Part shown: piece by piece, positions 5,701 to 33,500 of the stretch
Layout: each line of letters begins with the position of its first letter
Position numbering within the stretch: the stretch's first letter is position 1
Assembly (NCBI RefSeq): GCF_001186125.1
Contig: NW_014040524.1
Location: 165,192-209,610 of the forward strand
Source: Sphaeroforma arctica JP610
Lineage: Eukaryota
DNA: 44,419 nucleotides
Reading direction: 5' to 3'
Notes under the pieces: generated by a model
The model's database searches: none
What the model was told of the DNA's origin: nothing
Seen by the model: only the letters and a program-made list of their open reading frames with translations
Translations under genes and position numbers: made by a program

Positions 5701-7557
5701 GTGCCGTCGCCACACCTCATCAACTGACCAAACAGCCCAGTAGAACCGCCACAGATACAGCCAGTTACGCCAACACTCGGAGGATCGCCCCAGTGGTAAG
5801 TGTTAGGAAGGGCCTCGATGGCAGCAATACAAGAATCAACAAGAGAGTGTGACTATAGGCTCACTCACCCATGTGTCTGTATGTGTTCCTATCGTCTGTC
5901 TGTTCATATAACTAGTTAAACATATGCAATAAGAGAGTGTGGCTATAGTTCACTCACCCATGTGTCTGTATGTGTTCCTATCTTCTGTCTGTTCATATAA
6001 CTATTTACACATATGCAATACGAGAGTGTAGCTATAGGTTCACTCACCCATGTGTCTGTATGTGTTCCTATCTTCTGTCTGTTCATATAACTATTTACAC
6101 TTGCAATAAAAGAGTGTGGCTATAGGTTCACTCACCCATGTGTCTGTATGTGTTCCTATCTTCTGTCTGTCCGTATATATATTTACACATATGCAATAGG
6201 AGAGGGCCAATAAGTTCACTCACCCATGTGTCTGTATGTGTTCCTAACTTCTGTCTGTTCATATATCTATTTTTTAAACCCTCCTGAATTCTATGTAGCC
6301 GCCCACGCTCTGTTGTATGATCGTATCACTGTTGTGACTTTTACCTATCCCCACTCACCCAAGTCATTGCCCATTAAACCCTAAACCCCTAAACTCATAA
6401 ACCCCTAAACCCCTAAACCCCTGAAACAACAGGCAGCGCAAGACTTTGTGTTCCCGAAGGGCCTGAATGTGCTGTTGTGCGAAGACAACCAAATCAACAT
6501 CAAGGTGGCATCTGCCTTCCTCACCAAACTGAATGTAAGTCGAAGTGAAGTGTTTTGAATGCGCTGGTGATGCCAATGTGTGTCTCACCTCAAAGCTCCA
6601 CTGCCCCACACGTGTCTTAAGGTTTTAGGGTTTTCTAAATTCTCTGCCCCACACGTGTGCATGAGGTGCGTTGGCTATGTGCCCAGTAGTTCGATGTTCC
6701 GCGGGGCTGTGTCATTGCAACTCAATGGTCTGTTCTATTTTTAGGCGCCGCACGTGGTCGCTGTCAATGGACTCGAAGCGGTGGAAATCATCACCGGCGC
6801 ACGGCCCAGCCCACACAACGGCAACTATCATCTGATCCTCATGGACATACAGGTGAGGACGAGCATCAGTGTATGCCACGCACCCAACACACACAATGAA
6901 CCGGTTTATGTGACACCTGTGTGACACTTATGTGACATTTATGTGACACTTATATGACATTTATATGACACTTATGTTACTGACAAGCCCCAATACCCTA
7001 TCTGTGTACATGCGCTACATTGGGAGACAATCCGCCTGCCGCTCTTCTCTCTAATTCGAAAGTGTTGTTGTTGCGTTGAGCCTTATCAGTCTATTGCGGT
7101 ACATTCAGCGATAAAGGTGTCGGTACTATGGCCTATGCCTGGTTCTCTGAAACTCTATCAAGCATTTGACGATCGCACTATCCCAAGCCCCTTTCAAGCG
7201 AACAGCCTCAGGATTTAGTCTAACCCACGGCTAGAGCGTCGGCTTTCTATACAAATTGCACCTCCATTAGACAGGCTTGTACACAACTGGGTGCTCACAC
7301 TACCCTGCTGTGCGCGTGTATGAAGTTGTCCGTAGTCGCATGCACGTTCGCTGATGTGGGGCCACGTGTGTTGGTTTCTCTGCAGATGCCTGTCATGGAT
7401 GGAACCGAAGCCACCCTGAAGATCAGAGCGTACGAACAAGCACTCAAGGCCCAGGGGGTGGTACGTTACTGCCACGCACACACACGCGCACGTGACTCGT
7501 GTACACTTATCTCGAAAGATACTCGTTGATCACGCACACGCACACACGCACACACAC

Positions 7558-7605
<48 letters not shown>

Positions 7606-8831
7606 GCATATACACACACACACGCGCGTGACACGTGTACATTTATCTCGAGAGATGCTCGTTGATGCATAGTGTTGCCACAACAGACAGTTTCAATTGT
7701 CGGAAACCCCGCATGATTCGCTGACGCAGCCCTATCTATACCATCCGTCTATGCAGTAGCTTACCACAGTGTCTATCTTATTCTCTAGTCTCTGTATTAT
7801 ATCATCCATGCTGTGGTGAATCCTCTCCTTCTCCTCTCTGATTATGGCGGGCACCTTGGTTATTCAGTGACGTTTGTGTATGTGAACATGAACAACACCC
7901 GTTCATCAGTGGGTAGTTCCCTGAGGGTACGAGCTATAGCAGAAGCGTCCGATCACTTCGGCGGTCATTGTATCACACAACCACACTCCATACAGACCTA
8001 CACCTCCACCTCGCAAGTGCCTATGTGGTCATCTGTGAGTCTTCGTGCGCGTGGTGTCCCTTCTGTGTGTGTGTCGTGTGTGCATTCACCTACACACTCC
8101 CTCTCTCTCTCTCTCTATGAAGTACACTACTTTCTCTTAAAAGTACACCACTTCCTGCTTGTGCACAGACGCATGCGCCGATGTTCATTGTCTGCATGAC
8201 AGCTAACGTGCTTAAGGATCAGGTAGACGAGTGCATGTCAGGCAGCATGGACGCCTACATGCCTAAGCCACTCCGCAAGAAGGAGTTCAACCGGGTATGT
8301 GCACGTGTGTGTGCGTGCTTACATTGGTATAGGTGTATATGGGACGCATGCAGGGACCGTTGTGCGTCTGTATACCTTACAGAGTTATCCTTCTACGTGG
8401 GAGAGTGTATGTTCTTCATGTCTAGGGGCTGTGAATAGGCGAGTATGGGAGTGTATAGGAGAGTGTGTGTCATACAGTTAGTATACACTGCAGAGCTATC
8501 CTTCTGCGTGGGAGAGTGTATGGTCTTCATGTCTAAGGCTGTGAATAAGATAGTATGGGAGTGTATAGGAGAGTGTCGTGTCATACAGTTAGTATACACT
8601 GCAGGGCTATCCTTCTGCGTGGGAGTGTCTATGTCCTTCATATCTAGTGACCGCGAGTAGAAGAGTGTAGGTGTGATTAGTGATCATTGGTATGCGTATG
8701 TGTGACTATTGCCCTAACTTTAAGGATTATCTTATCTCTCACAGTTAATGGAAGAGTACACGCTGGAGCTCTTGAAAAGGTTCGGCTGTCCTGATGCTGA
8801 TCCTGATATGGCAATAGCTACCCGGTGGTAG
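164..8831 (+). CDS. Spliced C-terminal part of a hybrid two-component signalling protein (probably a hybrid histidine kinase) with two tandem response-regulator receiver domains; 5' end lies outside the window
   Basis: GT-AG exons join in frame: 164-362, 1133-1285 (FNVLLCEDNKINIKVA), 2167-2274 (YHLILMDLQ), 3905-4105 (MPDMGG...CMTANV...YMPKPL), 5496-5795 (Asn-rich linker), 6433-6534 (LNVLLCEDNQINIKVA), 6745-6852 (LILMDIQ), 7386-7460 (MPVMDGTEA), 8169-8294 (CMTANV...YMPKPL), 8745-8831 (TAG). The EDN-N-KVA, D-QMP-MDG, TAN and KP motifs are typical of hybrid-kinase REC domains. No kinase domain is visible in the window. Confidence 0.9.
530..670. repeat. (TACA)n intronic microsatellite
   Basis: Repeated ACAT/TACA units. 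Confidence 0.85.
2711..3696. other. Assembly gap within an intron, flanked by (TA)n/(GT)n
   Basis: N run. The exons on either side (ending 2274 and starting 3905) join in frame as DLQ-MP, so no exon is missing. Confidence 0.95.
4465..5000. repeat. Intronic AT-rich minisatellite (~30-bp subunits TTGATACATAGATTGTGTTTA.., higher-order ~90 bp)
   Basis: Many degenerate tandem copies are visible. Confidence 0.85.
5841..6270. repeat. Intronic tandem repeat, ~88-90 bp x 5
   Basis: The core TCACTCACCCATGTGTCTGTATGTGTTCCTA recurs five times. Confidence 0.9.
6433..8831 (+). other. REC domain 2 (exons 6433-6534, 6745-6852, 7386-7460, 8169-8294, 8745-8831)
   Basis: ED, LMDIQMPVMDG, MTAN and PKP motifs are all intact; it is a close paralogue of REC1. 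Confidence 0.9.
8365..8645. repeat. Intronic tandem repeat, ~107 bp x ~2.6
   Basis: TATCCTTCT(A/G)CGTGGGAG recurs three times and GTATGGGAGTGTATAGGAGAGTG twice. Confidence 0.8.
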
Positions 8832-13732: not shown

Positions 13733-13805
13733 TTGCCCTTTGCGGATTCGAACCGCAGGTCTTGTCCTTAGGAGGGACACGTGTTAACCACTTCACTAAA
13801 GGGCA
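13733..13805 (-). tRNA. tRNA-Arg (anticodon CCT), intronless
   Basis: The reverse complement folds as TGCCCTT TA GTGAAGTGGTTAACAC G TGTCC-CT CCT AA-GGACA AGACC TGCGG-TTCGAAT-CCGCA AAGGGCA A, with a fully paired 7-bp acceptor, 5-bp anticodon and 5-bp T stems, followed by T-runs. Confidence 0.93.
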
Positions 13806-14691
13806 CGGAAGTTTTTGTGTATCTATAAATTATATTGTATATATTGTATCTGAACCCAGCTTTATGTATATTCTTTTGTATGTATTCTATCTTAACCATA
13901 ATGTGTTGATCCACGGGTACGATTCTCAATGTACGCATGCGAATGATAAAAACTTAGTTCGATGGGGTCGCGAGTATTCTATTTACATTTGTTTCTACCA
14001 ACGCATATGCTGGTAACATAAATATCTCGATTTTCCTTTACAGGCGAGGTACTCAAGTACGATCTCATTAACCTAACATATCCCTCTCTTACGCCTGATA
14101 AACTATGGAACCGTACCTCGAACATTATGCATACATCATTTGGCTATTGACCTCCTCATGCAGAAGCCATAATCGTCTGTTGTGTTACATAGGGTTCAAA
14201 GTAAAAACAAATTATAGCCATATTTCATATTTAAAACCGCCTTGAACTTCGATTTTCCTGTGATATATATTTGAAAGGCCTTTAGTGGATCGTCATTCTA
14301 AGTTATACCATGGCTTCCTGAGCCAGTACCAGGCGGTTTGTGACTCTTTCAAAATCTCTTCGCAGTCCATATCAGCATCAGTTGAACTAATGATCGATAG
14401 CTAAAATTAGCGTCCTGCAACGGTCACTGTCGTCAATCTTATTTTACTTCGCCCTGGCTGCTGTCTTTGTGTGCAACCTAGTTGCCGATCTACCTCGCTA
14501 TCAATCTTTGTTGTTGATCAGAAACGTGTTCGCAAGACCAAATCTAATTATACTGATAAAACCTTTCTGGCAATGATTAGGCTCGTATTCTATATGTTAC
14601 GGCATGCGGCCAGATCTGCTGCAAAAAAATGGAATAACACCTTTATTGTAAGGTAACTTTTAACTGAAAGGTTATTCGAGATGTGTTGTAT

Positions 14692-15160
14692 TACGCAAAT
14701 TTATCTCATGCGCGTTAACCACCAATAGCACATGGCTCAGGAGTGATCATGTCACTCAGCCTAAAGGTCTGCGATACTCCATGTCATGGTGTATTTCACA
14801 ATGTCAAACTGGTACACAAGACAAATCTCATCTACTGATGCCTTAAAAATTGATGCTTGTGATACTGCACTGTGATCTCATGTGCAATTTTACCACAGCG
14901 GATCCGCAGAACGTTAAATCCTTGAACATAAGAAAAATTGTGTTGTAAATCTCATGTCTAGGTGATCTCCTAAATACCCACTTGGCCAATGTAAGATTGC
15001 CAATGAGACATTGGTAATACGCAAATTAATCTCGTGCACGTTGATCTCCAATCGCACATGACTCAGATGTGTTAATGTCAATCAGCCTTAAGTTATGTGA
15101 TGTTCCATGTACTGGTGTATTTCACAAAGTCAACCTGGCACACCAGACAAATCCCGTCCA
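14692..15160. repeat. Diverged ~140-bp direct duplication (14692-14832 and 15018-15160), possibly a decayed leucine-rich-repeat coding remnant on the minus strand
   Basis: TACGCAAAT.ATCTC.TGC.CGTT...TGGTGTATTTCACAA.GTCAA.CTGG.ACAC.AGACAAATC occurs twice. The minus strand gives (A/V)HEINLR.T fragments broken by stops. Confidence 0.6.
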
Positions 15161-16599
15161 TTGACGTTTACATTCGGATGTGATAACTATCATCAGTCCA
15201 TTTGTTGTATCAGACGAGATATGTGAGCACTGCTGCGATATTCCTATACACTCGTAGTGATCGCACCAGTCACACGCGAGAGCACCCGTAACTGATAGAC
15301 AGTTAGCAGATATGGTGGCATCAGCTCAGTATGTCGCTCTGTATTGCATGTGTGAACCATTGGCATAGAATGAAGTATACTGTCCAACCCGAAACAACCG
15401 TTCAAGATTTTTTTTACTACGTATTACACACATGTACGCGAGATGAGATAGGTAAACATATACCACAAACTAGCATTCCTAATATCAGCGTCATAATCTG
15501 CTATTCTAGTCTCTCGTATAACATACATGCTTGTCGACATGCGACCTTTCTGCTTACTGTGCGTATCTTACACCATTGAAACATTAACGATAAATAGTTA
15601 TTCTCGAAACACTTTCTGTTAGTTTGTAATTCTTTTGACGGTATTAAACAAACCAACAGATGTGTTGGTTTCCATTCGTCGATTGTATTTAGTTTAATAC
15701 TATATAAGGTTCAATATATCGGTTTGATAGCTTTGACATAGGCGGTGATCCTCACATTGCTAGAAGATACACATATTTGCCTTATTTATTTTTTAAGAAA
15801 GCAATATTTTACCTTTTATTCCACCTTCCTTTAAGCTTGTGAATGTATCCATCTCGACCTTTGCTATATCTGGACAGACTTTAGTCATAAGTCTTTGTTG
15901 CTGAATTGTACAATCCAATACAGAGTTTTGCTTATTTGGATTGACTAACCTAGTAAATAAGAATATCAACCCTAATAACATATATATGGTCGAGTCTTCG
16001 TCCAAGCAGATTGCTTACAATTCATTTGGAATAGAACTGTACTTAAAACGCTCACACCACCTATCATAATAACTCTCACACTCTATCTTGAGTTGTCAAT
16101 TCAGCTCTTTATGTCTGACTTAATCATATCCCGAGTTTGAGGCTTACATGATAGTCTAAGAATCTAAATATATCCTGTTAAGATAAAGCTTCGCGCGAAG
16201 GTACATTGGCAGAACTCAATTTCGCCGGTTAACCAACGAACATCATGAGATCGAAGGAACCATGCTATCTCATTGGACTCAGTGGTAAGACTTCGAATAA
16301 CAGTTTTTCAACGCTCTCCCTCCGTACAGAGGAAGACGTTGTTCTTTTGTTAGTAATCAATCCTAAACTACAGAATCTAGTTACCTATGAGCCATGTGCC
16401 AATCTGAACATTGATCGGTGCAAACTGAATTTACAGATTCTGATATTATAAACTTGAACAAAACAAACCAATATAAATTAATAAACCCTCTCTGAGTGTA
16501 TTCTGACCACAACACTGCCTACTAGTGTGCCAGCTTTAGCAATAAGGAAAGGAATACTTAGACCCGGACCGGTACCCAGGCATTTATCATCTGAGAGCT

Positions 16600-17340
16600 A
16601 AAGCAGTGTGCTGGCGTTTAACCTCAGAGAGCTAGAGGACCCGAAGTATACTTTTCGAGAGGACCGTCGTTCATAACAAATATATGTTCTAAGTACATGT
16701 AAAAGTACAAATCTGATCGCGGCGTCGTTTACGCGTGCGTGTCTGCGAGTCCTTGTGCTAGGCGACAATGTCGTTGGGATCGCTAAAGGCCTCGACTGTC
16801 TCCCACGTTGGGTCGCCTTCGCGCCATCGCACCAAATATTCCAGTTTGCCTGTCTCATCGTTGTGCGAAGTTTGATAATGTATCGGAACTCAACTCCTCC
16901 TTCGTCCCCCGATGTGTCGTCGAGTGGCGGGTCTGTAATACGGTGTACTAACCGGATGAGTTCGACACGGACTGGCTTGCTTTTTAAGTCTGATGGGGCT
17001 GACCCGTCTTTGTTCGCTATCTGATAGCGTTGTCCGATTCTAGTCTTAGTAGCATACGGACCAAAGAGTAGACATATTGCCTTCGTCGTTCTGCCTTCAG
17101 AGCGCACTATCACCACATCGCCTTCATCGAAGTGTACCAAGTCATGGCTATGGGGACGATCGAAGGTCTTCGTTAGCCTACCCGGATATTTCTTGGCAAT
17201 ATGGTGAAGCGTTGGTAAGATGGTATCCTTCATCTGATCCAATCGTTGAGCCCAAGTGTCACTGATCACTGGTTGTAATTAAGGTGTTTCATGGGTAAAG
17301 TCGGCGAACGGAACGTGTCTACGTTCAAAATACACACTAA
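16600..17340 (-). mobile_element. Ty3/gypsy 3' remnant: integrase C-terminus with GPY motif and chromodomain
   Basis: FDEGDVVIVR...FGPY is followed, after a frameshift, by HNDETGKLEYLVRWREGDPTWETVEAFSDP (~16775-16865), a chromodomain signature. Confidence 0.8.
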
Positions 17341-20300
17341 AAGGTGCACTTTTGTGTCTGCGTGTAGCATCCAAGGGCCAGACTATCAAAAAGGCCAATC
17401 CTAAACTCAAACCCCAGGATTATCAAATACTGAGTTTTGGATCTAGGATCCAATATTTCTGATGATAGAGTGATCAGAAATATAGCGAGAATACCGGTAG
17501 ATGATACCGTGACTCCCGCGTGTGAGAGAAACACTTAAGTAAATATTGAGTCTAGTGTAGAAATTACTAAACACAATAAAGACTCAATGCGAGTCCCTCA
17601 GCCTAGGACTTTTACCTAGCTGTAGGATTCGCACTTGAGAAGAGGTCTATTGTTTCCTTTGGTCGTATCCTTTCAGTACTCTCAAACTCTACATTTTTAA
17701 CAATATTCTTACTACGGTAAGTCAAACAACAGGGATAATAACCTGTTGAGCTGGTAGAAACATTATATCAAAAACAAGAATAAGATAGCAACAGCTCGAG
17801 AATTATTATAGAGACTGAGTCACAACGGGAGGACGAGAAGATACTACTCTACAGTGGGAAGAGAGCTGTCTAACACAGGAAACAGCCGCGCACAAACTCA
17901 GAAGAAGCAACCAACTAAGAATACTTAGTGGAAAAGCAGAAGAGTAGAGAAGAAACAGGAACCTCTCGAGAACAAAACAAGTCTGACAAACCATGTACGC
18001 AGTAAGTGTTTTTAACCCTCAGGTGACTCCAAGGTAAGTTCACCTGAGAAATACACGTACAAAAATATCAGACCTGTCAAGTTGATAACTTTATCAATGT
18101 TGAAGAAGAAAAAAGACAATTTTAGAAAAGTGTCAAGGTGATAACTTCTTTTATTGTGGTAGGCCAAAACATAGTAGTACCTAAACAACGAACAAGGTGC
18201 ATAATTAGCCCAACACAATGAGCCCAACAGGGTGCAATAAGTACTAAACAAAACAACGGGATTCACGCCACACAAAACACGATACACCCGAACTCGCACT
18301 GGGGCCATTCACAAGTTAGTCCTTATTTATAGACATTGAAATGTTAAATTTAATAACATCACCCAGAAGTGAAATCTCCTATAGAAGCTCAAGGATCTTC
18401 GTAAGAAGATTTAGTAAGTCGTTTTCTAAGAACAGTTACATAAGCCTTCCACGCCAACAGAAGCTGGCAAATGAACAACATAGGCCATACAATTAAATGA
18501 AAGTAAACGAAACATGAGAATACTCGATAACATTGAGTGAATTAGACGTACAACTTCAAATTAGGCATAGAATGGCACAAAATCCAAACAAAATACATAG
18601 TCCGTAGAACTCAAACTAGTAATGCAAACCGCGGAAGTTACTGAACGCACGAGTACACACAAGATCACTGAGGGAAACAACCACAGAGGCAATCGGGCTA
18701 GAAATCAGTAAAGAAGAATTGAGGCACAAACATTCAACTCAACGTTCCATTAACAAGTCAATAAGATTATCACATCCACACCCATTACACAAACAAATCG
18801 CTATAACTCAACAAAATAAGAACCCTAGGCAAAACGGATCCTCAACAAAGAGAAATCAGACAAGTAACTCACAATCTCGAATGAAATCAGACAAGAGTTC
18901 TATAGCCACCTTCAATATAGTTGCATCTATCAATATATTAACTTAATGGGAATACAGAAGACAACACATAGGGATATTGAGCTCCACAGTACGCCCACGA
19001 TAAGACTTGTAAGCGTGCAATGTAGTAGACTTTTTAAATAAAGTGCAAATGTATGTAAAGTATGGTGCATGCGAATAAAACTTATTTATGATCTCACCCT
19101 CAGTTATATACTGATGGTGTTTGTACTAGTGTTCAACCACTTGGGTTGGCCAGGGTAAAAACTCATATGATCAGTATGAGAAACCTTATGCAGAACACTT
19201 TAGCACTCGAATATATTTCCCAGAAATAAATATATCATATTCTCTGTTACAGCACTCAGTCTCGGACATCGGCTCTCGGCTAGCCGGTGGCCCGTATTCT
19301 ATAAATAGAATAATCTGAGAAGAAGTATCAAAATACTCTTACGTTCTCTCGGGCTGACCCACCAATACTTTTATTAATTTGAGAACAAGTTCTAAATTGC
19401 TCTCGGGCTGACGACGTAAAACGTTATTAACGTATATAGAAATACGTCTTCTACTGTAGTCTCTCAAGACTTGTGTAATAAATCGCTACTGGGATCCAAA
19501 ATACATGGACATTGGAATAGATAGGACCTCTCATTGAGAACCATTTACCAGAGATCTTATAAACAAGACACATTGTGAAATGCTTTACATCGTGATCGAA
19601 ACAAGAAAAACACCATCTCTTTAAATCGGAACAATACATTCTACACAAACGTATATGCGAACATCAACCCGTGTACAAGAATACTTGACACAATAATAAA
19701 TACGTACATTTAACTAATGCACAAGAGTACTTGAAGCACAATAATAAGAACTTCACGTGCACATACAGTCACGCACACCTCTACCTAAACCAAGGGAGTT
19801 GGATGACATAACCGACACCAAGAAAGACTCCAGGTGCACACACAGACAAGAAGTATCTATCTCACTAAGTCAAAAACAGTTAATGTAACGTAGCTCACAA
19901 TAAACAGAACTTAAAGTGCATACAATACCATAACCCCCACACAACTACCTAAATCAAGGAAGTTCGGTACACCCACAAACCAAAACGATACACAAGTATC
20001 ACAATAAGGTGACATATACACCACAAGGGGACAAATAAGATACATATACACAAGGAGTTCGGTACAGTGACAAAAGTCACTACCACATTGTCACACATTT
20101 TTACAAATTAAAGTTTTATAAATTAAAATAATAAAAACCATAAACCAAAAAGTCTCACATACAACAAACTGAGTGCACACGAGAAGCCAGGTTTATTTCA
20201 AATACACAAATAAACCTAGATAAACCCAGGTTTATCCACTTAAACAAAAAACTCACAATATAAACCCAGGTATTGCAAAGAACGCTGAGTTGAGCAGACC

Positions 20301-20649
20301 AGAGACAAGCTACTACACACGTCTTCACTACGTGACACTACAAGGAAGCACAAACAAAGGTAATCAATCGAATTTACTAAAACTGACGTAGGCACATAAG
20401 AGCCACTTGTACTCAGTAGTATACACAGTCTGGCATAACAACAAATGTTACACACACAGCACTGTCAATGACTTCTGCTCCATATCAGAGGACACGTGTA
20501 GCACGACGAAGCCTACGCACACAAGTGATCTCAAGCAGAACACAGACCAGAGGCAATACGAGTCGTACGACCAGGACACGTCCAGAAACAGCAACCACAA
20601 TGCCAGTTTCGCAAGCATCGTCACGCACCTCTACCCCACACAATGGGGA

Positions 20650-21870
20650 TAGAGCGATGCACATGGACGATGAGTCCACACCAGCACGAGCTCCAATGGA
20701 TCCAGCAATGAGTAAGTACAACATAGTCTTGGACAAGATCATCTATGAGAGCAACTACTACATTATAGACATACTAGTAGACAAGTTGTATTGACATTAG
20801 AGCGTTTCACAAATTGCGCAAAGCAGTTCATGAACAACAACCAAAGCGATTAGTTCCAGTAATAGACGAGTGAGTTCCCTAAGTGGCCAGCAGACAAATA
20901 TGTCAGTATGGCTGATTGTCGTGATACAATTGAGTTTGTATCTGTAGCCAAAGACTTGTTTGCGGGCACAAACATGCCATTGATACAGTACCTCTCACTA
21001 GTACAAGAGCTGCTCTGACAGACAGATGCAACCGAAGTTTCGCGCACTGCACTCAACAATATACGTAGTACCAAAAAGCTTTGGCAAGACTTCACTGATG
21101 TGGAGGACTACAACATATTAATCATTGACAATCTACGTCGCATTCCAGTAGACTATCTACTAGAGAAACGGCTCAGCGACTTCTATGACACTCGTATAAT
21201 TGTCGAAGTACGGGCAGCACGGTTGCGTCGCACAATGTTTGAGTTGGAGAAGCGCTACAAGGGCACGGAGAGAGAGGCTATCAATTGGCAACTCCTCAAA
21301 GCATCACGTTACCAAGTATTAGTCATGTATGGTTTACAAGCAGAAACAGACAAAATGATCAAGGCCCAGACAAAACCAGACGGTAGTAGTGGACATTTAT
21401 CTGACATCTCAGAGAAAGTATTTCAAGATCTCACCGAAGACATGATCAGACAGGCAACCAAAACACAAGCCAAATCGCAAGCGTGAAGCCAAACGAGCGA
21501 AAAACACACATGCTCATGAACCGCGAGCTACTCGCCCAAGACTGGACATCCCTATAGGGGGTCCACCCAGAGGGGGGGGGGGCACCAAGAGGTGGAGGTC
21601 CACCAAGGGGTGGAGGTCCACCAGGAGGGCAAGGCAGAGGTCGTCCCGGAGGACAGGCCACTGACACTCCAGCACCACGAGGACCACGACCCTGCCCACA
21701 CTGTGGGATAAACCCCTCACCACATGCGTTCAGCAAGTGCCCCAACAAAGCGGCAAACAACCGTCGAAAGGCAGAAGCACGTGAAGCGCAACAGAACCAA
21801 ACCGTCCATGTTGACCAGTTAGCCATTACCAATGGCAATAAGGTGCAAGAGATGGATGAAGATCTATGAA
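20650..21870 (+). pseudogene. gag of element A (frameshifted)
   Basis: Broken ORFs directly upstream of the protease, ending in a GGPP/RGG tract and a CCHC-type knuckle. Confidence 0.65.
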
Positions 21871-21893
21871 AGGCTTGATGGTCGGAGGCTAAC

Positions 21894-23730
21894 ATGATAA
21901 ACATAGTAGACATTGTGAATGCACACACTGATGAAGAAACGTTGTTAATAAATGCGAATGATATTGATTACACACCCATTTCTTTACTTCCGAATCCATG
22001 CGACCAAAGATTGCACATAGACATACAAATCAATGGCACCACATACAATGCACTAGTGGATTCAGGGGCACAACGCTCTTGTATGGACCGAAGTGTAGTG
22101 ACTGAACTATACCTATCTGTAAAGGCACAACCCGGATACATTCAACTCGCACAATCAGATGCAAGAGTACAACGCACAGGCTTCACAGAAGTATGTGATA
22201 TAAATTACGGAGGCAGAAAAACCTCAAACTGTTTCGAGGTACTTGACCTCTCAGACAAGAAATCACGGAAGGGACATTCTACCGTTCTTGGGCATATACT
22301 TAGCAGGGATAATCAATCCACTAATACCAACAGATGCCAAATGCGAATCACTTCTTACACCACATGAAGACCCTGAACATGAACAGGAAGGATTCAGATA
22401 TTCACTCTCAGACTTGTTAGAACAAAATGGGCAAATCCCACCCACGAGATATCAAGTCAAGGGGTTAAAGCAAAAAACAGTGAACTTTGTTTCACACAAA
22501 CACATACCACAAACAGATGAAAGCGTTCAGAAATGGGTCAAAGATGGACACATATACAAAAGAACAACATCCACACAGGTGAACCTGTCACTACTGTCCA
22601 CAGGAGAATACAGACAGGTCTGATAAAAAAGATCCGCACATGTTTAGATTTACGAGAAGGAAACTATCAACACGAACAAGACAAATTCGTTTTACCAAAG
22701 ATAAAAAGAAGTACTCCACAATCTACAAGGTAGGTGCACAATTCTTCTCCAAACTGGACTTAACAGGATGCTTCCACCACTTCAAAGTACATTGAAAATA
22801 GCCAACACTTCTTCACATTTTCATGGATAGGGGCGCAATACTCATTCAAGTCAACTCCATTTGGACTGCACTCGCTAACAGCACAATTCCAAAGAGTGAT
22901 GGTCAACCTCCTCATTGACATTAAAGGAGTACAAGTATATGTAGACGACATAGTCATCGCTAGTATGACAGAAGAAAAACACAGACACGCAGTACTCGAA
23001 GTCATCAAAAGACTTAATGCCGCCAACTTCAAGCTAAATCACAACAAGTGTGCGTTTGCAGTCAAGACAGTCAATATATTAGGCGTCAAAGTGACTACTC
23101 AAGGGCTCAAAACAGACCCAGAGAAACATAAACGCATGATTGACTGACCCTTACCAAGAACCAAACGTGACTTACATAGAGCAGTCGGTCTAACAAATTA
23201 CATGCGAGACCACATACATCAGTTTGAACACATAACAAAACACTTCCGCAATCTCATGAAAGGCAAAATGAATCAAAATATAGCCAATCTTTGGACACCA
23301 GAACTTACCAAGAAATGGGAAGAACTCAAAGATGCTATTGGATGCTCAGCAACTTTGGCGTACCCAGTAGATGGAGTTCCATTTCAGATCATGAATGATG
23401 CAAGTGATTATGGCATAGGAGGATGTCTGTTCCAAATTGTAGATGGAGTCAGAAGAGATATACTTTATTTCTCAAAAGGTCTCAACCCTGCACAACAAAA
23501 ATATGAGACAAATACTAAAGAGTTGTTAGTGCTTGTATACAGTCTAGAACATTTCTCAGAATACATCAAAGGCGGCGATATAACAACAAAGCGTTATGCC
23601 ACATGAACAAGCAGCAAACTCTGCATCCTATGCTCGCAAAATGGATAGCAAAAACATTCCATCACCACTTCACGATTATACACATGCCAGGCAAAGGGAA
23701 TGAAGTTGCTGACAGATTGTCAAGACTACA
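21894..23730 (+). pseudogene. pol of element A: aspartic protease, reverse transcriptase, RNase H
   Basis: DSGA; IRTCLDLR; FSKLDL; PFGL; YVDDIVI; KC.FA...NILG; DASDYGIGGCLFQ; SKGLNPAQQKY; KELL; NEVADRLSR. Confidence 0.9.
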
Positions 23731-23848
23731 CGAAGACACATTCAACATCAAAACATCGAATGTGTTGAAAGAAGCCAATGAGCACATACACAATGGTCAG
23801 GAATACACCGACTTAGAAACATACTTGCCCATCTTAGTGTCTGCCATT

Positions 23849-24230
23849 GACTGGAAACTACATCCGCGATAGAAGGCCTGTTTGATAAATTCACCATTGG
23901 TTTATTTGAAGCCGCACACAATGCTCAAACCGCGAAATTCTACACCAAAGAATAAACGCGCTGCTACAGAAGTGGGCAGATGAAATAAACGCATGGGCAA
24001 ATCCTCCCTGGGAACTAATACCAGACGTGTTAGGCAAAGTCATAGAGGAAGCCACAAGCATTACAATATGCGCTCCGTACTACCCAACCGCAACATGGTT
24101 CCCCAAATTCCTGTCATTACTGGAACAAGATCCAATGATAGTTGAAAACACAAACAACACGTTCTTAAAGAACGGCACAATTGCCTGTGGTAAAACACCA
24201 TGGGAGGTCACATTAGTTGTCAAAATAGGC
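23849..24230 (+). pseudogene. Phage-Dam-like N6-adenine DNA methyltransferase domain inside pol of element A
   Basis: Read across one stop and two frameshifts: DWKLHPR*.. / FDKFTIGLFEAAHNAQTAKFYTKE / NALLQKWADEINAWANPPWELIPDVLGKVIEEATSITICAPYYPTATWFPKFLSLL. This matches the Dam/DIRS-MT pattern W.(T/L)P...DLFA...N.....FYT..DAL...W.....NPP[YFW]......P....WF. Confidence 0.85.
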
Positions 24231-24329
24231 ACAAAGTCCCCATACTTTGACCAAAAACTATCGCATCCTGCAGTGAACATTGCACCCATACACATCGCGG
24301 ATGAAACCGCAGAGCTAGACACAGACACA

Positions 24330-25334
24330 TATGAAGACAGAGCCACACTCATAGCTCAATACCACACAGTGGGTCACTACACTGTCGAAGAAACAGTGAA
24401 CAAACTCATACTCGACGGCCACACATGGTTTAGACAAAAGGAACATGTCAACCAATATATTGAGGGATGTGTACCATGTCTCAAGAACAAATTCACAAGA
24501 AGGGATTCCACCCTTTACAATCAATAACCGCTGCCTTCCCGGGCGACAGGATACAAGTGGATACCATAGGTCCCTTGATAGACTCGAATAGGGGCAACAC
24601 GTACGTTCTGGTATGGTTAGATGTATATTCATCATACGCCATACTCAGACCAATGATGGACAAATCGACAGCCGCTGTTGCCCGAACACTAGTTCCAATC
24701 ATGTGTGAACATGGATTTCCACAAGTCGTACAGACGGATCAGGGCACAGAATACGTGAATGACATACTCTCAAAAATCATTGAGCAGGCACCGTCACAAC
24801 ACTTAGTGTTCAGACCGTATCAACCCAAAGTAATGGAAGCAAATGAGCGCTCGCACAGAGACCTCATCCCTTTACTATGGAAATTTGTTGAACAAAATCC
24901 AGGCAACTGGTGCTCACGCCTCCCATTTGTCCAAATGGGCCACAACCTACGTTCCTCACGCAGACACAAATCACCAAGGTTCAATGTGTATTATGGGCGA
25001 CGATAAAACCAACTCACAAATCATGACACAACGGTCAGTGCACCAGGTACAACTATACCATGGGAAACACGACTACAGAATCTGGAGGAGTCGATAAGAC
25101 CACAACTAGATGCCAATGTGGCACAATACCAAGAAAAAAATGCGCGCAGCATTTGATCGCAAAGATCAAGAGAAGTATGTACACTTGCAAGCAAGGGACA
25201 TTGTGATGGTTCGTTACTTAGGTGAAATGAATAAAATGACAGCACCATATGGAGGCCCATACAAGATAGCAAGCAAAGAGGGCAACGGATATTTCGTCCG
25301 TAACCTTAAGTGGGTACCAAAAACCAAGATATAG
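24330..25334 (+). pseudogene. DDE (rve) integrase of element A
   Basis: YHTVGH...CVPC zinc finger, then (after a frameshift) D in QVDTIG, D in QTDQGTEY and E in ANERSH, then a YGGPY motif; 3'-truncated. Confidence 0.9.
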
Positions 25335-25339
25335 ATAAG

Positions 25340-27040
25340 TCTATATCATCAATGCTTCTGCTCCTCAGACATCTCTTGAGGAGCCTATGACTCAAGGGGA
25401 ACTCTCTCTCTCACGAGTTCTTACTCGGGGGAAGTTCAAACTTCTTCGAATACGTCAGATGCTGATACACTTAAGTGGATCAAGCAATATTATCACTTGA
25501 CGCATTCAGCAGAGATGCGATGATTCCAGAAGCAAAGCGTAGAGGTCTGATCAATCTTAATCTGCGTAAACTCTGCGAGTAAGAATACTCTAAGTGTGTT
25601 GATTGTGAAAAGACACAAATCAAGCGCTGTGGTTGGGGCCCACTTAAGTCGGTGCTTGAAGATGAACCTATGCGCATGGTCATCATTGATTTGGTTGTAA
25701 GGGATATAGTTGGACGACATGATGAGAAGTATGTATTTCATATGTTTGATGTACCCTCCAGGTATAACTTATTTAATCCTGTCAGGAATAAACTATTTGA
25801 AACAATGGCGGAATTATGCTTACGCATCTTTGCCGATCACGGCTACCCATTATTCTTATGTCATGATAATGGCGACGAGTTTATAGGCGTATTAATGATG
25901 GCTTTTAAACTCGTATCTGGCATATGTGGAAAACGGGGAGTTCCCTATAAGCCACAAACGCAAGGTGCCAATGAAGTACGTCATAGGAAACTTAAGTTTC
26001 TATTAAGGACTGCACTATAAGACGATGCTAGAGATTGGCCCTATCGCTTGACATGGGTACAAGATCAGATGAACGAAACACCTGATCCTGTCACCGGCAT
26101 AACCCCGTCACACTATTTCCGTGGTAGAAAAAGTATGTTACAACCCCTTGTAGAAGGGGTAGCTGGAAAGGTACAGTCACATAAGCGGCTGGAAAGATTA
26201 AATAGAGTACATAAGGTTTTATACCCTGTACTTAAAGAAAAGCGAATCACTGTAATTTTAAAAGCGCAAGGTTGCTGGTCTCATATGAAGATACAAGTTT
26301 ACTTCAAAAAATGTGATTATATTAACAAAACCCAGAGAAATTCGTACACGGGTAAATTTTATTCTTACTATATAGGTTCTTATACGATCTCTGTTTATGA
26401 CTTCATGACGAAAAGTCTGATACCTACAAGATTATTAATGTAGATGGTACAAGCGCCTTAATGTGGGCTTATCTCGTATACCGAGGGACCAAATAATACT
26501 CTGTTGAACATGTGATGATAATACACCCCCTGAACAACATGAGTTCAAGAAGATATAGGTATAGAATCTTTTAACGGAATTACTTATTATAAATCATAGT
26601 TTCACGACAATGAGGTTTATAACCTTACGTCTTCAGACTTTGGAAACCCTGATTACTTAAAAAATATCAATAAGAAATGGCGTAGGCGCTTACATAAAAA
26701 CCAGGAAGATATAGACAAGCTCTTTCCTCAAGCAGATAAGATTGTTACGCACTTTTATGCTGGTCTTGAGTTCTGGTCTTCTCTTTATATAGATAAACTA
26801 AAAATCTATGTCACGAAAGCGTGTACACCAAAAAACGGTTGGAACTGGGAATACCAAGCGAACAAGGGTAGACTCACACACGTGAGGAATATTTACATAT
26901 TAGGATATTCTAGAATATTATAAGTATTTATATACCTTGCTACCTTAGGTTTTACACCGCATATGCTTCCTTTCTCGATATTTCTCCACGATGGTACCTA
27001 GGTAGTACTATATTCGATAGCTTAGAGCTGGCGGGGGGCT
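25340..27040 (+). mobile_element. Second, unrelated gypsy integrase remnant (element B) abutting element A
   Basis: YHLTH...CVDC; EPMRMVIIDLV; CHDNGDEF; PYKPQTQGANEVRH; ends in a purine-rich GGCGGGGGG tract at ~27029-27038. Confidence 0.8.
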
Positions 27041-27041
27041 A

Positions 27042-27373
27042 TGATATCATAGCAGGTCCTAGATGTATTCAAGATAATACTATCTAATAAATCTAGCATT
27101 GTCTTATGTAAAGGGTTTTACTATGTAATATTACTAATACATATATTATATATAACTTATGTTATATATAATATAATACCTTTTAAAGGGTAAATAGTTT
27201 TCCTTTATAGATGACTCACAGTATAAAGGATGAAATTATTTATGTTTATTCTTTTAAAAGATAAACAAAGGTTTTTATAAACTAACAATTGATAAACTTA
27301 GTTTATACAAACTAAAAGATTTAATTATTAATAACACCAACCTCAGGCCGACCCCTAGGGCATTACCACAACA
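27042..27373 (+). repeat. Putative 3' LTR of element B
   Basis: AT-rich segment starting TG just after the G-tract (PPT-like) and ending ...ACCACAACA. No second copy in the window confirms it. Confidence 0.4.
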
Positions 27374-27699
27374 ACCTGGGGACGAAATGACAATTTTTAT
27401 TTTTATTTTTATTTTTCTTAAGTGGCCATTTAAATTCAATTCTAACGATTTCAATCGTCCATTTAACTGAAAGAATTGAAACTTTATTAAATTTTCAGAA
27501 ATCCTTAATAAAATATCGATGAAGGCTGGGACTTGGCGGCCTATAAAGGCCAGGTGCCCCCTGACTAAGGCCTCAGTCTTTAGCTAGTTACTTTAAAGTA
27601 CCTAGCTATTAACAGCTGGACTTGAAAGTTAGCTTAATTTTTTAGTCTACTGCGCCTTTATTTAATTAGTCAATTTACTATAGCTATTACAGTCCATAT

Positions 27700-29060
27700 C
27701 GGTTTATATTTCTTGTTATCGACCCATTGGAACAATGCTCCGCCTATAACGTATTCACTAGCATCGGTCGACTAGTTCAATGGCACCCTTTCTATCGAGA
27801 ATTACACCGCCATTGCATTCACCACCGCATCCCTCATCGCCTGCCACGCTTCTATATGTCGTTATTCCCAACGATCACTGATCAACTCGGTTGGTCTTAG
27901 ACGCAGCGGCGCCAAAATGTAGGCAAAGTTAGGTAGGTATTCGTGGAGGTATTTCGCTAAGCCTAGAGCCGATGCTATGTCCTTGTATCGTTGCGGGGCT
28001 GGCCAATCTAGCAGTTTTGCTTAATTCTTATAGTCCACATCGACGCCTTGCGCCAACACCTTGCCCAGTATTATTACTTCCGCAATTGCAAAGTGGACTT
28101 GGCTGGATTCAGTTTAAAACTATGGTATGTGGGACGCTTGATGACCTCCTTTATTGTGCTGATATGTTCGTCGCGATGTAGTGATGTGATGGTAGTCCGT
28201 CCAGGATTGTTCCTAATGTACGCTGGAACTGCTGTGTCAACACATACAGGCCAAATGGTACCGATGTGAACGAATACTGGTGCCGTTCATGTGTGAAACT
28301 GAACAAGTACCTGTGAATCCGGATATATCGGCCGCCGAGATGTCCAGTGTTGTGTAGTACCTCTTTCTCTTGAGCGGAATGAGTCTGTTAACTTTCGGAA
28401 ATAAGAATTGGTCACCTGGGATGAGTACATTCACCGCGCGCATGTCTAAACACACCCTCACCCTCTTGACGTTGCCTTCACTGTCAAACGTGAGTACAGT
28501 GAGCAGTGGTAGATAGACTGATGTTGGAGTCGATTAATGAATATGTCCTCCAATCACTTCTGTACTTGTTCGTCGACGTAAGGTAGCCATCGGTCCAATA
28601 CGCAATTACGTGTGGATCTGCGCATGCTCATGGCTTGTTCACGCGTAGTGTCCGGTACCGTTACTTCACTCCTCTCGAGGCGACATTGTGCGTTGTCTGC
28701 AATCGCTGCGTTCGCCTCTAACGCCGATGTCAACCGTTGTCGAGTGTCAGCTGGTTCCGTTGTATTTGGTGACTGACGACGTTGTATAGGTTTCAGTAGT
28801 TTATCAAGCTCCACGGGGTTGATATATGCGAGAAGTGATTTGATACCCCCTATGTATAACCTCAGACCCTTCATCATGTCCCGTCTTAAGATAATGTCCA
28901 TCAGTGTAGGCAGGTTCATTATTTCGAGCGAACCATTGAGAATCTTCGTGCCGTACCGTATATGTAATACTTCCGTCATCCCCAGTCGCGGAGTTTGCAC
29001 CGCCTTGTCAGCTATACAGATCAACGAACCAGGTGGTGCTGGAGTAATAGAACGGATATA
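27700..29060 (-). mobile_element. Decayed gypsy pol fragment (element C): protease end, RT, start of RNase H
   Basis: RVCLDMRAVN.LIPGDQF.FPKV...YYTTLDIS (RT); AWQAMRDAVVNA...PFEL..DASEYVIGGALFQWVD (RNase H, ~27720-27850). Confidence 0.8.
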
Positions 29061-30554
29061 TANNNNNNNNNNNNNNNNNNNNATATATATATAACACCAC
29101 CACTAACATTGAAGTATACGCTGTATGTTGGTCTGTGCTTGATTCTGAATTTGATTCACCACATAAACACCCAAATAGCTTACCTGATTTCGTAGTAGAT
29201 CTTGTGACTAGAATTTTATGAACTTTAAATACCTTATGTCCCGTGATTCCGGTTGCTCCCGTAGTAGTAATGATAGCTGGATACCTTTATTATCCGAGAT
29301 ATATTACAACCTATCCGCTACCGATTTGAACAATACTATTTCTTATTTTTTTTCAAACAGTTCTTTGAAGCGACTCAAAAGCATCTAACGCATCTAAAAT
29401 ATCGTGTCTGTCGTATATTCTCCTTCGACAATCTAGGTGCTGCTGCACGGCTTCACCTCTGGTATATATAACCTCTCGCACAAACATCACCTTCTAGATC
29501 TACAGGTACCTATTATACCCTTCCTGCCTGCTAAGGATGTAATACCAATTATCATTGTATACTAGTTATCCTTAGCGTTCTACCTCTCATAATAAACCGT
29601 TATCGCACACGATGGTGAATCCTGACTATTAATTGCTCACCCATGTCCCTATCAGTCTTCATACCTTTTTGTGTGTATTATAACAGCTCTCTGGGTACTT
29701 CTCTATCAGCGCCGGACCACTTCAAGTAACTCTGCCCCCCTCACTATTCGTTCAATTTCATCTAAAGGACCACACCATATGTTAATGTCCGTCATCATCA
29801 GGTATTATAGCTAATTCTATGTTCGTGAGCTAGGCTTGGTACTCGGTTTTTGTTTATCAAACACATAAAACAAATAAACAAGAATTTTCATTTTACCACG
29901 TATACACAATCAAAAACAATAGTATTGCCTTATGTGTGGTACCGCCGATTACTTATCTCCTTCTTCCGGGCATTCCTCTGGGTTCTCTTGCTCGGGTACT
30001 TCTTCATCGTATATTGGCGGCAATATTACTGGGGTATATTGTATCGTCAACGAGGTTCTAGCTGGTTGCTGCTCTTGATGTGACTCCCCAGCTTCCCAAG
30101 AAGTATCATCACTGAATATCAATTGTTTACGTTGTCTTCCCCTAGGCATTCGCGCCGAAACATCCCTCGCAATTCGTTATTGATGGGTCCCTCTCCCGAT
30201 GACGTGGTCTACTGTGCTATTTATTTGTAAGTAAGTGTCTCAATCGCTATTACTGTCTGACATCAGCGGTGGCATCGAATCGCCTGTGTCACTACTAGCG
30301 TAACCACTATCCGTATGATCCAAATCACTATTCTGTTACCTCCTCATTTTCTTCCTGATTCATTGATGCTTTCCTCTATACTACTTTTGTTATATGAGGA
30401 AACATTCTATTACCAGCTAAGCTACACTATAGTTGTTCGTTGGATTGATTATTAAAAAAACAATTTCATTAGTATGTTAAAAATATAGTACGACGTCGAA
30501 TAACAGTATCTCAACGTCCTCCTTTCATACAGAGGGAGACGATTGTTAATGGCA

Positions 30555-33500
30555 CAATCTAATATGAGTCATGTGCTGATCTGAACACTGATCGGTACAA
30601 TCCAAGTTTACAGTTGTTGCGTCCAGCGTCTTTAAAAGCATCAACTGTCGTATTTTTGCCTTCACGTGACAGCGCATGGTATTTGAGCATGGGATCACGC
30701 CTCTCATCTCGATCAGACAGGCTTCTCGCCTGAAAAAAAAAAACGTTCAATATCTGACGTTTCTGCTGCTTCTTCCCTTCAGATTTCCTTTAGTTTGTTT
30801 TGAATTCAAACAAAGAGGAAGCTTGTAATCACCATTGTTATTTTATATTCGGACAATGACTGTAGCTTCCCACAGTGTATGCCCCACATGTTCATTACCA
30901 TACCTTAAAAGGTATTCCGGGTTCTAGGCAATATCATATGGTCAGCACTTATCATACCTTCAAGTTCTTTCATTCGTTTAATTTCTTTCGAAGAGGGCAG
31001 TAAAACAAAGGGTTATTTCAAATCTATCCTCTTTACACGACTTAATATCTTAGTTGCTAAACAAAGGAGGATTTCTCCAACGATTTTCTTATGTCTAATC
31101 AATAGAGAAGGCATCAATTGGTCATTTTTTGTGCAGTATATGCTAATTTGATGGTTAAAGTGATTAACAAACAAGCCTGTTGTACGCTTGCCGAGAATAG
31201 GTCCCGATAGCTGGAACTACATCGGAATTGTCACCCACTCAACTATGCTGACTCAATGTTCCGGTAACCATCCTAATTATTTTCTTTGGGCGTCCGTAAG
31301 TATTTTAGATACCATATTGGCAAAGCAAGTTTTTTTCATCGGAGATATGATAGCGTGAAATCATACTGTTTAATAGTTTCTTATCAGTAGGGTCATCGTG
31401 TGTATATACATTAAGGCTCTATAGTCCTTTCTTATTACAATGTGTGCTCCATCAGAGCTTGAATTATTATGAACGACTTTTTTTTGCTTGTTGAATAGTG
31501 GATCTGGTGCTTACTCAAAAGTGAAGGAACGGATATATGACTTTTTCTCGTCTATTCTCGAATATTTCGCTCCTTCTATTGCATAGTCGGACACGCCAGT
31601 TTCCAATAAGAAAGATGCTACTCCTTTTGGATATGTCACAGCAAGAGCCTCAGCTGTTACTCTCTTTAGCGTTTTCAAGTTTCTTGTACCATTTTTCATT
31701 CCACATTTAAATTCTTTTGGGTAGAAAGCTTGCTGAAAGGTTCTGAGTATTTCGCAAGGTGCGGAATTTCCTTTCGCATGAAATTTGGCATTTCAAGCAA
31801 GTATTTTATATTTTTACTCGCTTGCGACGTTGGGAACTGCATCAGTCGTTTAATTCGCTCTGGGTCAGCTCTTCTTCTTTTAGCATCTACTACGTGTCCT
31901 AAAAAATGCACTTCCGTCAATCCAAGTTTCGACTTCGATAGATTGGGCTTAGGTTTTTCATCAACCTACACAGACTTTCAAGGTTGCTTAATGCTTCCAG
32001 TAAGATCATCTATTTTCCACGTCTGCGAACAAATGAGACACAATCATTTGAAAACAGGATACAAGCATGTGAAGGCCAAATGGTGAATATTACATAGTTT
32101 TGGTGAGATTCAGTAATCTAAAATTGATATTATCCTTGTTTCAAATGTAAAAGGTAAAGCATCTTTTCTCCTAAATTTTCCTTTAACGTAGTATTTGGCA
32201 GTAAAAATATTTTGTTTGCGTAAATGCATTCAATGGTCTAATATCCAAACACACAAGCTCGTCCTAAAGAGTTCTTAGTTGTTCTAAAGCTAACAACGCC
32301 ACAATGACTGGAGTGTTTTTATGATTTAAGTCTAATATTGATTTAAAAGTTTATCCATACTTAGATAGATTTTACCTCTGTTAAATCAGTATACTCGGTA
32401 ATGTTGGTTTTCTCATTTAACTTTAGAAGGTAAATAAATATATCAATGAGCTCTTGATTAGGCTCAACTTGTCGAGGCTTGTTTATCTCATCAATATATT
32501 CTTCGATATTAATATCGATATCCTCACATGAGTCAGCAGGCCCGTTAAGGTCATTCCAACTTAATTAAATCATCTAATATCATTTAGTATCTTCACTACA
32601 TATAGATTCATATATGCATCTCGACCATCGATAAGTTCAATTTGAACATCTGTAAGCCGCAAAAGCTAAATATAGAATACAACAAACTTCCACCCTTGAA
32701 ATCGTTAGTAAGTTCATCGGTCACTTCTATGGAAACCAAAAGGAGGGATCTATGCTACTGTGTTCGATATATATAGCGCTGCGCTGAATATGGCATTCTT
32801 GTTGACATGCTGGATTGAGCTGTAAAAATAGAGTGATATCACTTTATCAATTTTACACTGCCGGTGCAGGAACTTGAGCGTAGTTTGGTACTCACGAGGC
32901 TAGGGCGCCTTACACACGTGGAAAATACCCTAGACTTTGGGTTGTTCAACCACGTTAATTTTTATACAAAATAATCATTGCGATTGTTTTAGTTCAAGTT
33001 TTATACATTGATGTTTATTAATTAAAGAATTTTCTGCCCCGGTAATGGCTCACGCAGTGAAATTTATTTGTTTATTTATAAAGGTATCGATACATGGTCA
33101 ATTATTCATCTTAACATCACTATTGTCTTCTTTGGGAGTAATAATGCTCACTGTTAGCGTGCTATGTGGGGTTAATACGTCTACTTCTGTAGTCTCTCAC
33201 TCACTAAAAGACTGCCCGGGGCCGTACTATAATTTTGCCTCCGCCTTAGAGCATCCTGGCTTGTGACTTTTATAATATGAACACAATGAAAGCATGGCGG
33301 GTTTTTTTGGTGCTTCGAGAATCGCGATATCTCCATTGCACAAATCGTCTTCTCGGCCTTAACCCTAGCAGTTTAGCAGCTTCGGCCTGTCGCTTCTTCT
33401 TGGCAGCAGCTGCTTCAACAATTCTCGCTGCTTCATTTCGAGAGAAATTGGTATTTTTTTTTGTTCTTTGACGGAGAGGCATGGGCGGCGGACAGGATAG

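What the first reader, a model, noticed from the sequence alone, without database searches (positions are those of the whole stretch)
30845..31240. A second, divergent gypsy element has the same MTase at the same position
Seen: element D (minus strand, not recognisably similar to A at DNA level) retains collinear MTase motifs (GLF..H.N.Q...YCTK; DAFSID[W]; W.NPP; ITLC; D.MI...T.NTF...G....G.T.WE.T..V.I). They again lie between RNase H and the integrase N-terminus, and the ORF track does not show them. Inference: the RH-MTase-INT order is an old, vertically inherited trait of a clade rather than a one-off chimera, which implies selection on the domain.
Basis: partly seen in the sequence, partly recalled or inferred. 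Interest (0 to 1): 0.85.

Follow-up and report, generated by a model that had tools for sequence, protein, structure and literature searches.

The report
Dead methylase-carrying gypsy retrotransposon, second family
A broken jumping gene here carries an adenine-methyltransferase domain right after its RNase H, like a distantly related neighbour in the same DNA, which likely reflects old shared ancestry, but this kind of element was already described in a 2026 preprint.

Summary
D (minus strand) has a decayed Dam-type (PF05869-like) N6-adenine methyltransferase at 31240-30846, broken by about 5 frameshifts and 3 stops. It sits about 20 codons after RNase H. It aligns to A's domain far above shuffles (79 vs at most 38), and a profile built without A or D finds it (iE 1e-9). 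A and D share no DNA similarity. The integrase start after it is only weakly supported (p about 0.01).

RT and Dam trees both put A, D and 12 database RH-Dam polyproteins in one clade (100/99; 94/92). That clade includes named Abeoforma proteins, and A's named near relatives are from Sphaeroforma. This matches the 'Ichthyosporean DAM-LTR lineage' of a May 2026 preprint, so old vertical inheritance is likely but already described. AU tests do not lock D's placement.

D is dead, so the evidence for selection comes from relatives (NPP kept in 15 of 15). The shared 'GLF' is decay of DLF, shown for A. Two points go beyond the preprint's text: this clade has a divergent C-terminal chromodomain, and Ty1/copia polyproteins also carry Dam. 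The scan found DAM-LTRs before in other genomes.

The parts
30846..31240 (-). Element D: decayed Dam-type N6-adenine methyltransferase domain (NPP kept; DLFA motif reads GLFV; about 5 frameshifts, 3 stops)
31304..32254 (-). Element D: decayed reverse transcriptase and RNase H (11 frameshifts, 2 stops by profile; tBLASTn extends to about 32340)
30613..30684 (-). Element D: probable His half of the integrase zinc finger; weak support
   Evidence: 1 of 100 and 2 of 200 shuffles reach the score; 2 of 14 single relatives score above their shuffle maximum
30488..30613 (-). Stretch about 82% like 16436-16285; either more D-family integrase sequence or a short LTR of a neighbour (unresolved)
23843..24239 (+). 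Element A: Dam domain (2 frameshifts; about 75% identical to intact P0001/P0002)
21894..25307 (+). Element A pol: protease, RT, RNase H, Dam, zinc finger, rve integrase; cut off before the C-terminus
25392..26800 (+). Element B: integrase to C-terminus of a third family, 66% identical to Dam-bearing P0014; its own RT-RH-Dam part is missing here
27697..29039 (-). Element C: protease, RT, RNase H of the same RT clade, cut off before the place where Dam would lie
16719..17374 (-). Element E: integrase C-terminus and chromo-like end (possibly the 3' end of C)
15659..16436 (-). D2: decayed integrase core/C-terminus (matched part 16145-15659), sharing about 150 bp with D's 3' end
   Evidence: score 61 vs shuffle maximum 44, 0 of 60

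Best explanation
D is a dead Ty3/gypsy retrotransposon copy with a Dam-type adenine methyltransferase domain right after RNase H, which it likely inherited, as element A did, from the common ancestor of the ichthyosporean DAM-LTR clade. Shown: the domain, its order, the decay, and tree placement with named Abeoforma proteins. Inferred (about 0.8): one old capture, probably of a DIRS-type module, followed by vertical descent into many families about 40% identical. Inferred (about 0.5, following the preprint's model): in living copies the domain is made as part of Pol and packaged with RT and integrase. There it would put 6mA on the element's own reverse-transcription products, so that new insertions carry the host's mark of active chromatin. 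D itself cannot make the protein.
For: Domain real. Intact 1288-aa relatives P0001/P0002 read PR-RT-RH-Dam-INT with Pfam Dam E about 1e-14. RT tree: A, C, D and 12 Dam-bearing polyproteins form a 100/99 clade with 0 of 19 Dam-less gypsy RTs inside. Dam tree: the same set at 94/92 with largely matching subgroups. On raw DNA, D's RT-RH scores higher with all 8 clade members (minimum 167) than with all 14 Dam-less RTs (maximum 141), and D's Dam scores higher with all 11 clade members (minimum 68) than with all 12 DIRS-type domains (maximum 61). Named relatives: Sphaeroforma arctica (P0004, P0005, P0008) and Abeoforma whisleri (P0007, P0011, P0013). Constraint: NPP and the Asp motif in 15 of 15 clade domains; 18 of 28 listed differences among A-family copies in the Dam region are synonymous. 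The model of P0005 (pLDDT 92) matches predicted phage DNA N6-adenine MTases best (E 2.5e-8, TM 0.73-0.75). The preprint reports more 6mA and expression on DAM-LTRs in two ichthyosporeans.
Against: AU tests do not reject D grouped with the mostly Dam-less RT clade (p 0.191) or with DIRS Dams (p 0.185). A tree with the clade minus D held together is as good (p 0.545). D's branch is long (1.6). RT/Dam distance congruence is modest (rho 0.37, p 0.015; 0.34, p 0.06 without near-copy P0002). Clade members were found through their Dam, so Dam-less members would be under-sampled. Other Dam-LTR RTs overlap the clade's scores (P0040 scores 194). The preprint's E. coli assay found no DNA methylation by these domains. 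The synonymous count uses 28 of the 40 best-supported rows shown, out of 337. The host is inferred, not shown.
Confidence: 0.6

Rival explanations
1. Same descent, different job: the domain works on RNA (cap-adjacent or internal adenosines of the element's transcript, as PCIF1 does), or only binds nucleic acid, rather than writing 6mA on DNA.
For: The best solved-structure matches are PCIF1/CAPAM cap-adenosine methyltransferases (ranks 1-6, E 7.5e-4 to 1.2e-2, TM 0.59-0.66); E. coli Dam is rank 26. Iyer et al. (PMC4738411, passages) place DIRS1 MTases in the PCIF1 clade and call them likely inactive. The preprint's DNA assay was negative, and its text never mentions PCIF1.
Against: Predicted phage DNA N6-MTases fit better than PCIF1 (TM 0.73-0.75, E about 1e-8), and PHROG 111 'DNA methyltransferase' matches P0005 at 4e-13. 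NPP is kept in 15 of 15, which argues against a dead binder. DAM-LTR insertions are enriched for DNA 6mA (preprint).
Confidence: 0.25
2. A and D gained Dam separately at the same site, either by repeated capture of a DIRS RH-Dam module or by recombination between families.
For: RH-Dam is the DIRS order, so captures would land there. P0019 and P0065 have the same order on RTs nested among Dam-less elements. The preprint counts at least four captures. AU tests are non-significant. D's best RT match is P0014, while its best Dam match is P0009.
Against: Both domains of D point to the same clade on raw scores and in both trees. No Dam-less RT lies inside it (0 of 19).
Confidence: 0.13
3. The match is chance, an assembly error, or a recent copy or duplication of A.
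For: Plain tBLASTn E 0.45 and no Pfam hit in D's single frames.
Against: 0 of 150 shuffles reach the score; HMM iE 1e-9; identical contig in 3 studies; no DNA similarity to A.
Confidence: 0.02

Closest known systems
Ichthyosporean DAM-LTR lineage (Fernandez-Moreno et al., bioRxiv 10.64898/2026.05.21.726589; whole main text read, figures and supplements not seen)
   Same: Ty3/gypsy Pol with a Dam domain and NPP triplet; reported from Pirum, Abeoforma and Sphaeroforma as one clade (97%). Named Abeoforma proteins fall in my clade, and A's named near relatives are Sphaeroforma proteins.
   Different: The text says the lineage lacks chromodomains, whereas the relatives here have a divergent one. 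The text does not describe several families about 40% identical side by side in one genome. D is a heavily decayed copy that a getORF/hmmsearch screen would probably miss.
DIRS1-type tyrosine-recombinase retrotransposons with an MT domain (PMC4738411, passages)
   Same: Homologous Dam-like domain directly after RNase H.
   Different: A and its relatives use an rve integrase with a zinc finger, and the RTs group with Ty3/gypsy, not DIRS.
Phage Dam family PF05869 / PHROG 111
   Same: Sequence and predicted fold.
   Different: Embedded in a retroelement polyprotein; activity not shown.
PCIF1/CAPAM cap-specific adenosine N6-methyltransferase (PDB 6IRW)
   Same: Nearest solved fold.
   Different: 13-16% identity, no WW or helical domain, and a worse fit than phage models.

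Membership tests
Ty3/gypsy LTR retrotransposon | Gypsy-type RT followed by RNase H | tested here: met
Ty3/gypsy LTR retrotransposon | DDE integrase downstream of RNase H | tested here: inconclusive
   Met for A and intact relatives. For D only a weak zinc-finger half; the core is absent after about 30490.
Ty3/gypsy LTR retrotransposon | LTRs, primer site, gag and protease | tested here: inconclusive
   No LTR pair could be assigned to D by self-BLAST. The protease profile was not significant upstream of D (9 of 60 shuffles reach it).
DAM-LTR, ichthyosporean lineage | PF05869-type domain within an LTR-element Pol | tested here: met
DAM-LTR, ichthyosporean lineage | Asn-Pro-Pro catalytic triplet | tested here: met
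   WRNPP in D, WANPP in A; 15 of 15 clade domains
DAM-LTR, ichthyosporean lineage | Groups with Abeoforma, Sphaeroforma or Pirum elements | tested here: met
   Clade with named Abeoforma P0007 and P0011 in the RT tree (100/99) and Dam tree (94/92); AU tests do not exclude other placements of D
DAM-LTR, ichthyosporean lineage | Lacks a chromodomain (as the preprint states) | tested here: not met
   An HMM from 7 Pfam-positive chromodomains hits the C-terminus of 9 of 15 clade proteins at iE 0.004 or better, including Abeoforma P0007 (4e-8); profile-profile probability 98%. D's own C-terminus is missing.
DAM-LTR, ichthyosporean lineage | 6mA on insertions; host encodes AMT1 | not testable with these tools
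   No methylation data and no host genome
DIRS retrotransposon | DIRS-type RT and tyrosine recombinase instead of a DDE integrase | tested here: not met
   RT lies outside the DIRS clade; intact relatives have rve

The most novel reading that the evidence does not exclude
The ichthyosporean DAM-LTRs are an old radiation of chromodomain-bearing gypsy families, at least three of them represented in this 44-kb window, that may never have lost the methyltransferase because replication depends on it. Its true substrate would be the element's own RNA or RNA-DNA intermediate (PCIF1-like chemistry inside the particle), not host DNA.
Probability: 0.15. Interest if true: 0.65.

Novelty: new member of a known kind. 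Interest (0 to 1): 0.25.

Why it matters
It confirms, from a decayed copy, that the RH-Dam-integrase design is a stable trait of many long-diverged families in one lineage and not a one-off chimera. That strengthens the case that the domain is useful to the element. The design and the lineage are already in a preprint, and D is dead, so the gain is modest. The open question is the enzyme's substrate, and intact natural relatives such as P0001 suit that test; D does not.

Tried and rejected
No whole genome is held for this window, so copies could not be counted genome-wide. Plain tBLASTn, Pfam and PHROGs on D's single frames gave no Dam hit because of the frameshifts. No intact D-family member was found: the best identities among the proteins compared were about 30-39%. 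No Dam was found after C's RNase H or before E (scores at background). A protease upstream of D looked plausible by eye but was not significant. A zinc finger in D2 looked plausible by eye but was not significant (183 of 200 shuffles reach it), so whether 30613-30488 / 16436-16285 is integrase or LTR stays open. A PDB sequence search with the Dam alignment gave 0 hits at E 1 or below. The VIA-align fold comparison was never obtained. The ESM Atlas gave only unnamed eukaryotic clusters and one with Dam in 14% of members. The metagenome scan gave one locus covering only RT-RH, so no dN/dS on Dam was possible. No RNA holder was listed for D, and X22 and X23 laid nothing on A; neither is evidence about expression. 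I first considered an animal host because of the microsatellites and rejected it: the window's intron-rich gene reads by eye as a two-component receiver domain (family recalled, not searched), and A's named relatives are ichthyosporean. Rows left out of the RT tree: P0178, P0179, P0153, P0154 and 8 of 12 DIRS-type proteins (49 of 61 rows used).

Full report
Observation. Single-frame tools miss it: tBLASTn with A's ORF gives E 0.45, and Pfam finds no Dam in D's frames. A frameshift-aware aligner gives 79 (A read with X at breaks), 87 (P0001) and 74 (P0002) against shuffle maxima of 38-42, with 0 of 150 shuffles reaching each score. Across 294 tiles of the window only tiles on A and D stand above 43. 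An HMM from 17 database Dam domains, without A, D, P0001 or P0002, hits D at iE 1.1e-9 and 9.3e-7. By profile, D's domain has 5 frameshifts and 3 stops, and its RT-RNase H (32254-31304) has 11 frameshifts and 2 stops. The stretch is identical in single contigs of three studies, so the breaks are real. A and D share no DNA similarity. The gap from RNase H to Dam is about 20 codons. The integrase start is the weak part: a His-half zinc finger at 30684-30613 was reached by 1 of 100 and 2 of 200 shuffles. After it, 30613-30488 is about 82% like 16436-16285, which leads into a decayed integrase core at 16145-15659 (0 of 60 shuffles). Whether that shared piece is integrase or LTR I could not settle.

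What it is. A's intact relatives P0001 and P0002 are single 1288-aa frames reading protease, RT, RNase H, Dam (Pfam E about 1e-14), zinc finger, rve. A profile-free HMMER search returned 150 relatives of the Dam region. Of 30 scanned, most were Ty3/gypsy polyproteins with Dam between RNase H and integrase; 27 more were mostly RT-RH-Dam proteins without integrase, which I labelled DIRS-type from architecture. In the RT-RNase H tree (49 of 61 rows), A, C, D and 12 Dam-bearing proteins form one clade at 100/99, and none of 19 Dam-less gypsy RTs lies inside. The Dam tree (54 rows) groups the same set at 94/92 with largely the same subgroups. Scores on D's raw DNA agree: RT-RH scores 167-268 with 8 clade members versus 36-141 with 14 Dam-less RTs, and Dam scores 68-132 with 11 members versus 28-61 with 12 DIRS-type domains; other Dam-LTRs overlap both ranges. 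Against this, AU tests do not reject D placed with the mostly Dam-less clade (p 0.191) or with DIRS Dams (p 0.185). D may be sister to the rest of the clade (p 0.545), and RT/Dam congruence is modest (rho 0.37, p 0.015; 0.34, p 0.06). The clade was found through Dam, so Dam-less members could be missed. D is 26% (RT) and 34% (Dam) identical to A, while intact families average 42-43%, so part of the gap is decay (inference) and D is still a separate family.

Host. Not shown directly. A's named near relatives (60-70%) are Sphaeroforma arctica proteins, and three clade members are Abeoforma whisleri proteins, so an ichthyosporean host is likely.

Selection. D gives no evidence of selection itself. 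In 15 of 15 database clade domains the NPP triplet and the Asp motif are kept. The A family is multi-copy (254 contigs laid on 1.1 kb). Of 28 listed differences in its Dam region, 18 are synonymous (p 1e-5 against 25%); these come from the 40 best-supported of 337 rows. At the 'GLF' position all 6 other contigs have Asp, so A's Gly is private. D's Gly is probably a separate decay (inference).

Mechanism. The fold of P0005 (pLDDT 92) matches predicted phage DNA N6-adenine methyltransferases best (E 2.5e-8, TM 0.73-0.75). Among solved structures it matches the RNA cap methyltransferase PCIF1 (E 7.5e-4). Being part of Pol, the domain would be packaged with RT and integrase (established Ty3/gypsy biology, recalled). 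The likeliest job, following the preprint, is 6mA on reverse-transcription products so that insertions join active chromatin. This is untested, and the preprint's E. coli assay was negative. The RNA or binder rival rests on the PCIF1 link, which Iyer et al. drew for DIRS MTases (PMC4738411, passages only) and which the preprint's text does not mention.

Known and new. Fernandez-Moreno et al. (bioRxiv 10.64898/2026.05.21.726589; whole main text read; figures and supplements not seen) define five DAM-LTR lineages, one from Pirum, Abeoforma and Sphaeroforma. A and D are most likely members of it. Two points depart from that text. An HMM of 7 confirmed chromodomains hits the C-terminus of 9 of 15 clade proteins at iE 0.004 or better, and the profile-profile probability is 98%, though the lineage is said to lack chromodomains. 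Two Ty1/copia polyproteins carry Dam, while 'copia' is absent from the text. The unseen supplements may bear on both. Five paper searches (listings only, apart from the two papers named) showed no other description of these elements. Earlier notes of this scan report DAM-LTRs in other genomes; I did not test them.

Verdict. Real and correctly read, a further decayed family of a described lineage. Interest 0.25.

Noticed in passing
proteins P0042 and P0047: Ty1/copia-type polyproteins (RVT_2) carry a Dam domain, after the protease-like barrel in P0042 and before it in P0047; their Dams are sisters (100/99). 'Copia' does not occur in the preprint's main text, and one paper search listed no paper about such elements, judged from titles and abstract starts.
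   Followed up: partly
C-termini of P0001-P0018, P0153, P0154; window 25392-26800 and 16719-16900: A divergent chromodomain ends the polyproteins of this clade, although the preprint says the ichthyosporean lineage lacks one.
   Followed up: partly
window 15659-33000: A nest of at least five fragments (A, B, C, D, E, D2), all of or resembling the DAM-LTR clade. C and E share strand and composition (GC 0.48-0.50) and may be two ends of one element split by A and B.
   Followed up: partly
window 30875-31487, run X3: Another genomic contig matches D at about 30875-30910 and again from 31487, skipping 576 bases that include most of Dam; what lies between is not known (a diverged or a Dam-deleted paralogue).
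   Followed up: no
window 23871-24589, run X24: A 2097-base contig from a run guessed to be RNA (organism B) covers A's Dam-to-integrase region with 85 differences; a lead for expression of the A family.
   Followed up: no
proteins P0025, P0026, P0141: Other positions of Dam: between an endonuclease domain and RT (P0025, P0026), and after the integrase (P0141).
   Followed up: no
window about 3900-8800 (+): Intron-rich gene whose exons read like a response-regulator receiver domain, with one exon present twice (3989-4148 and 8178-8337, 79%).
   Followed up: no
window 13733-13805 (-): tRNA-Arg(CCT) gene just beyond the retroelement nest.
   Followed up: no
window 14688-14838 and 15014-15164: 151-base direct repeat at 80% identity.
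   Followed up: no
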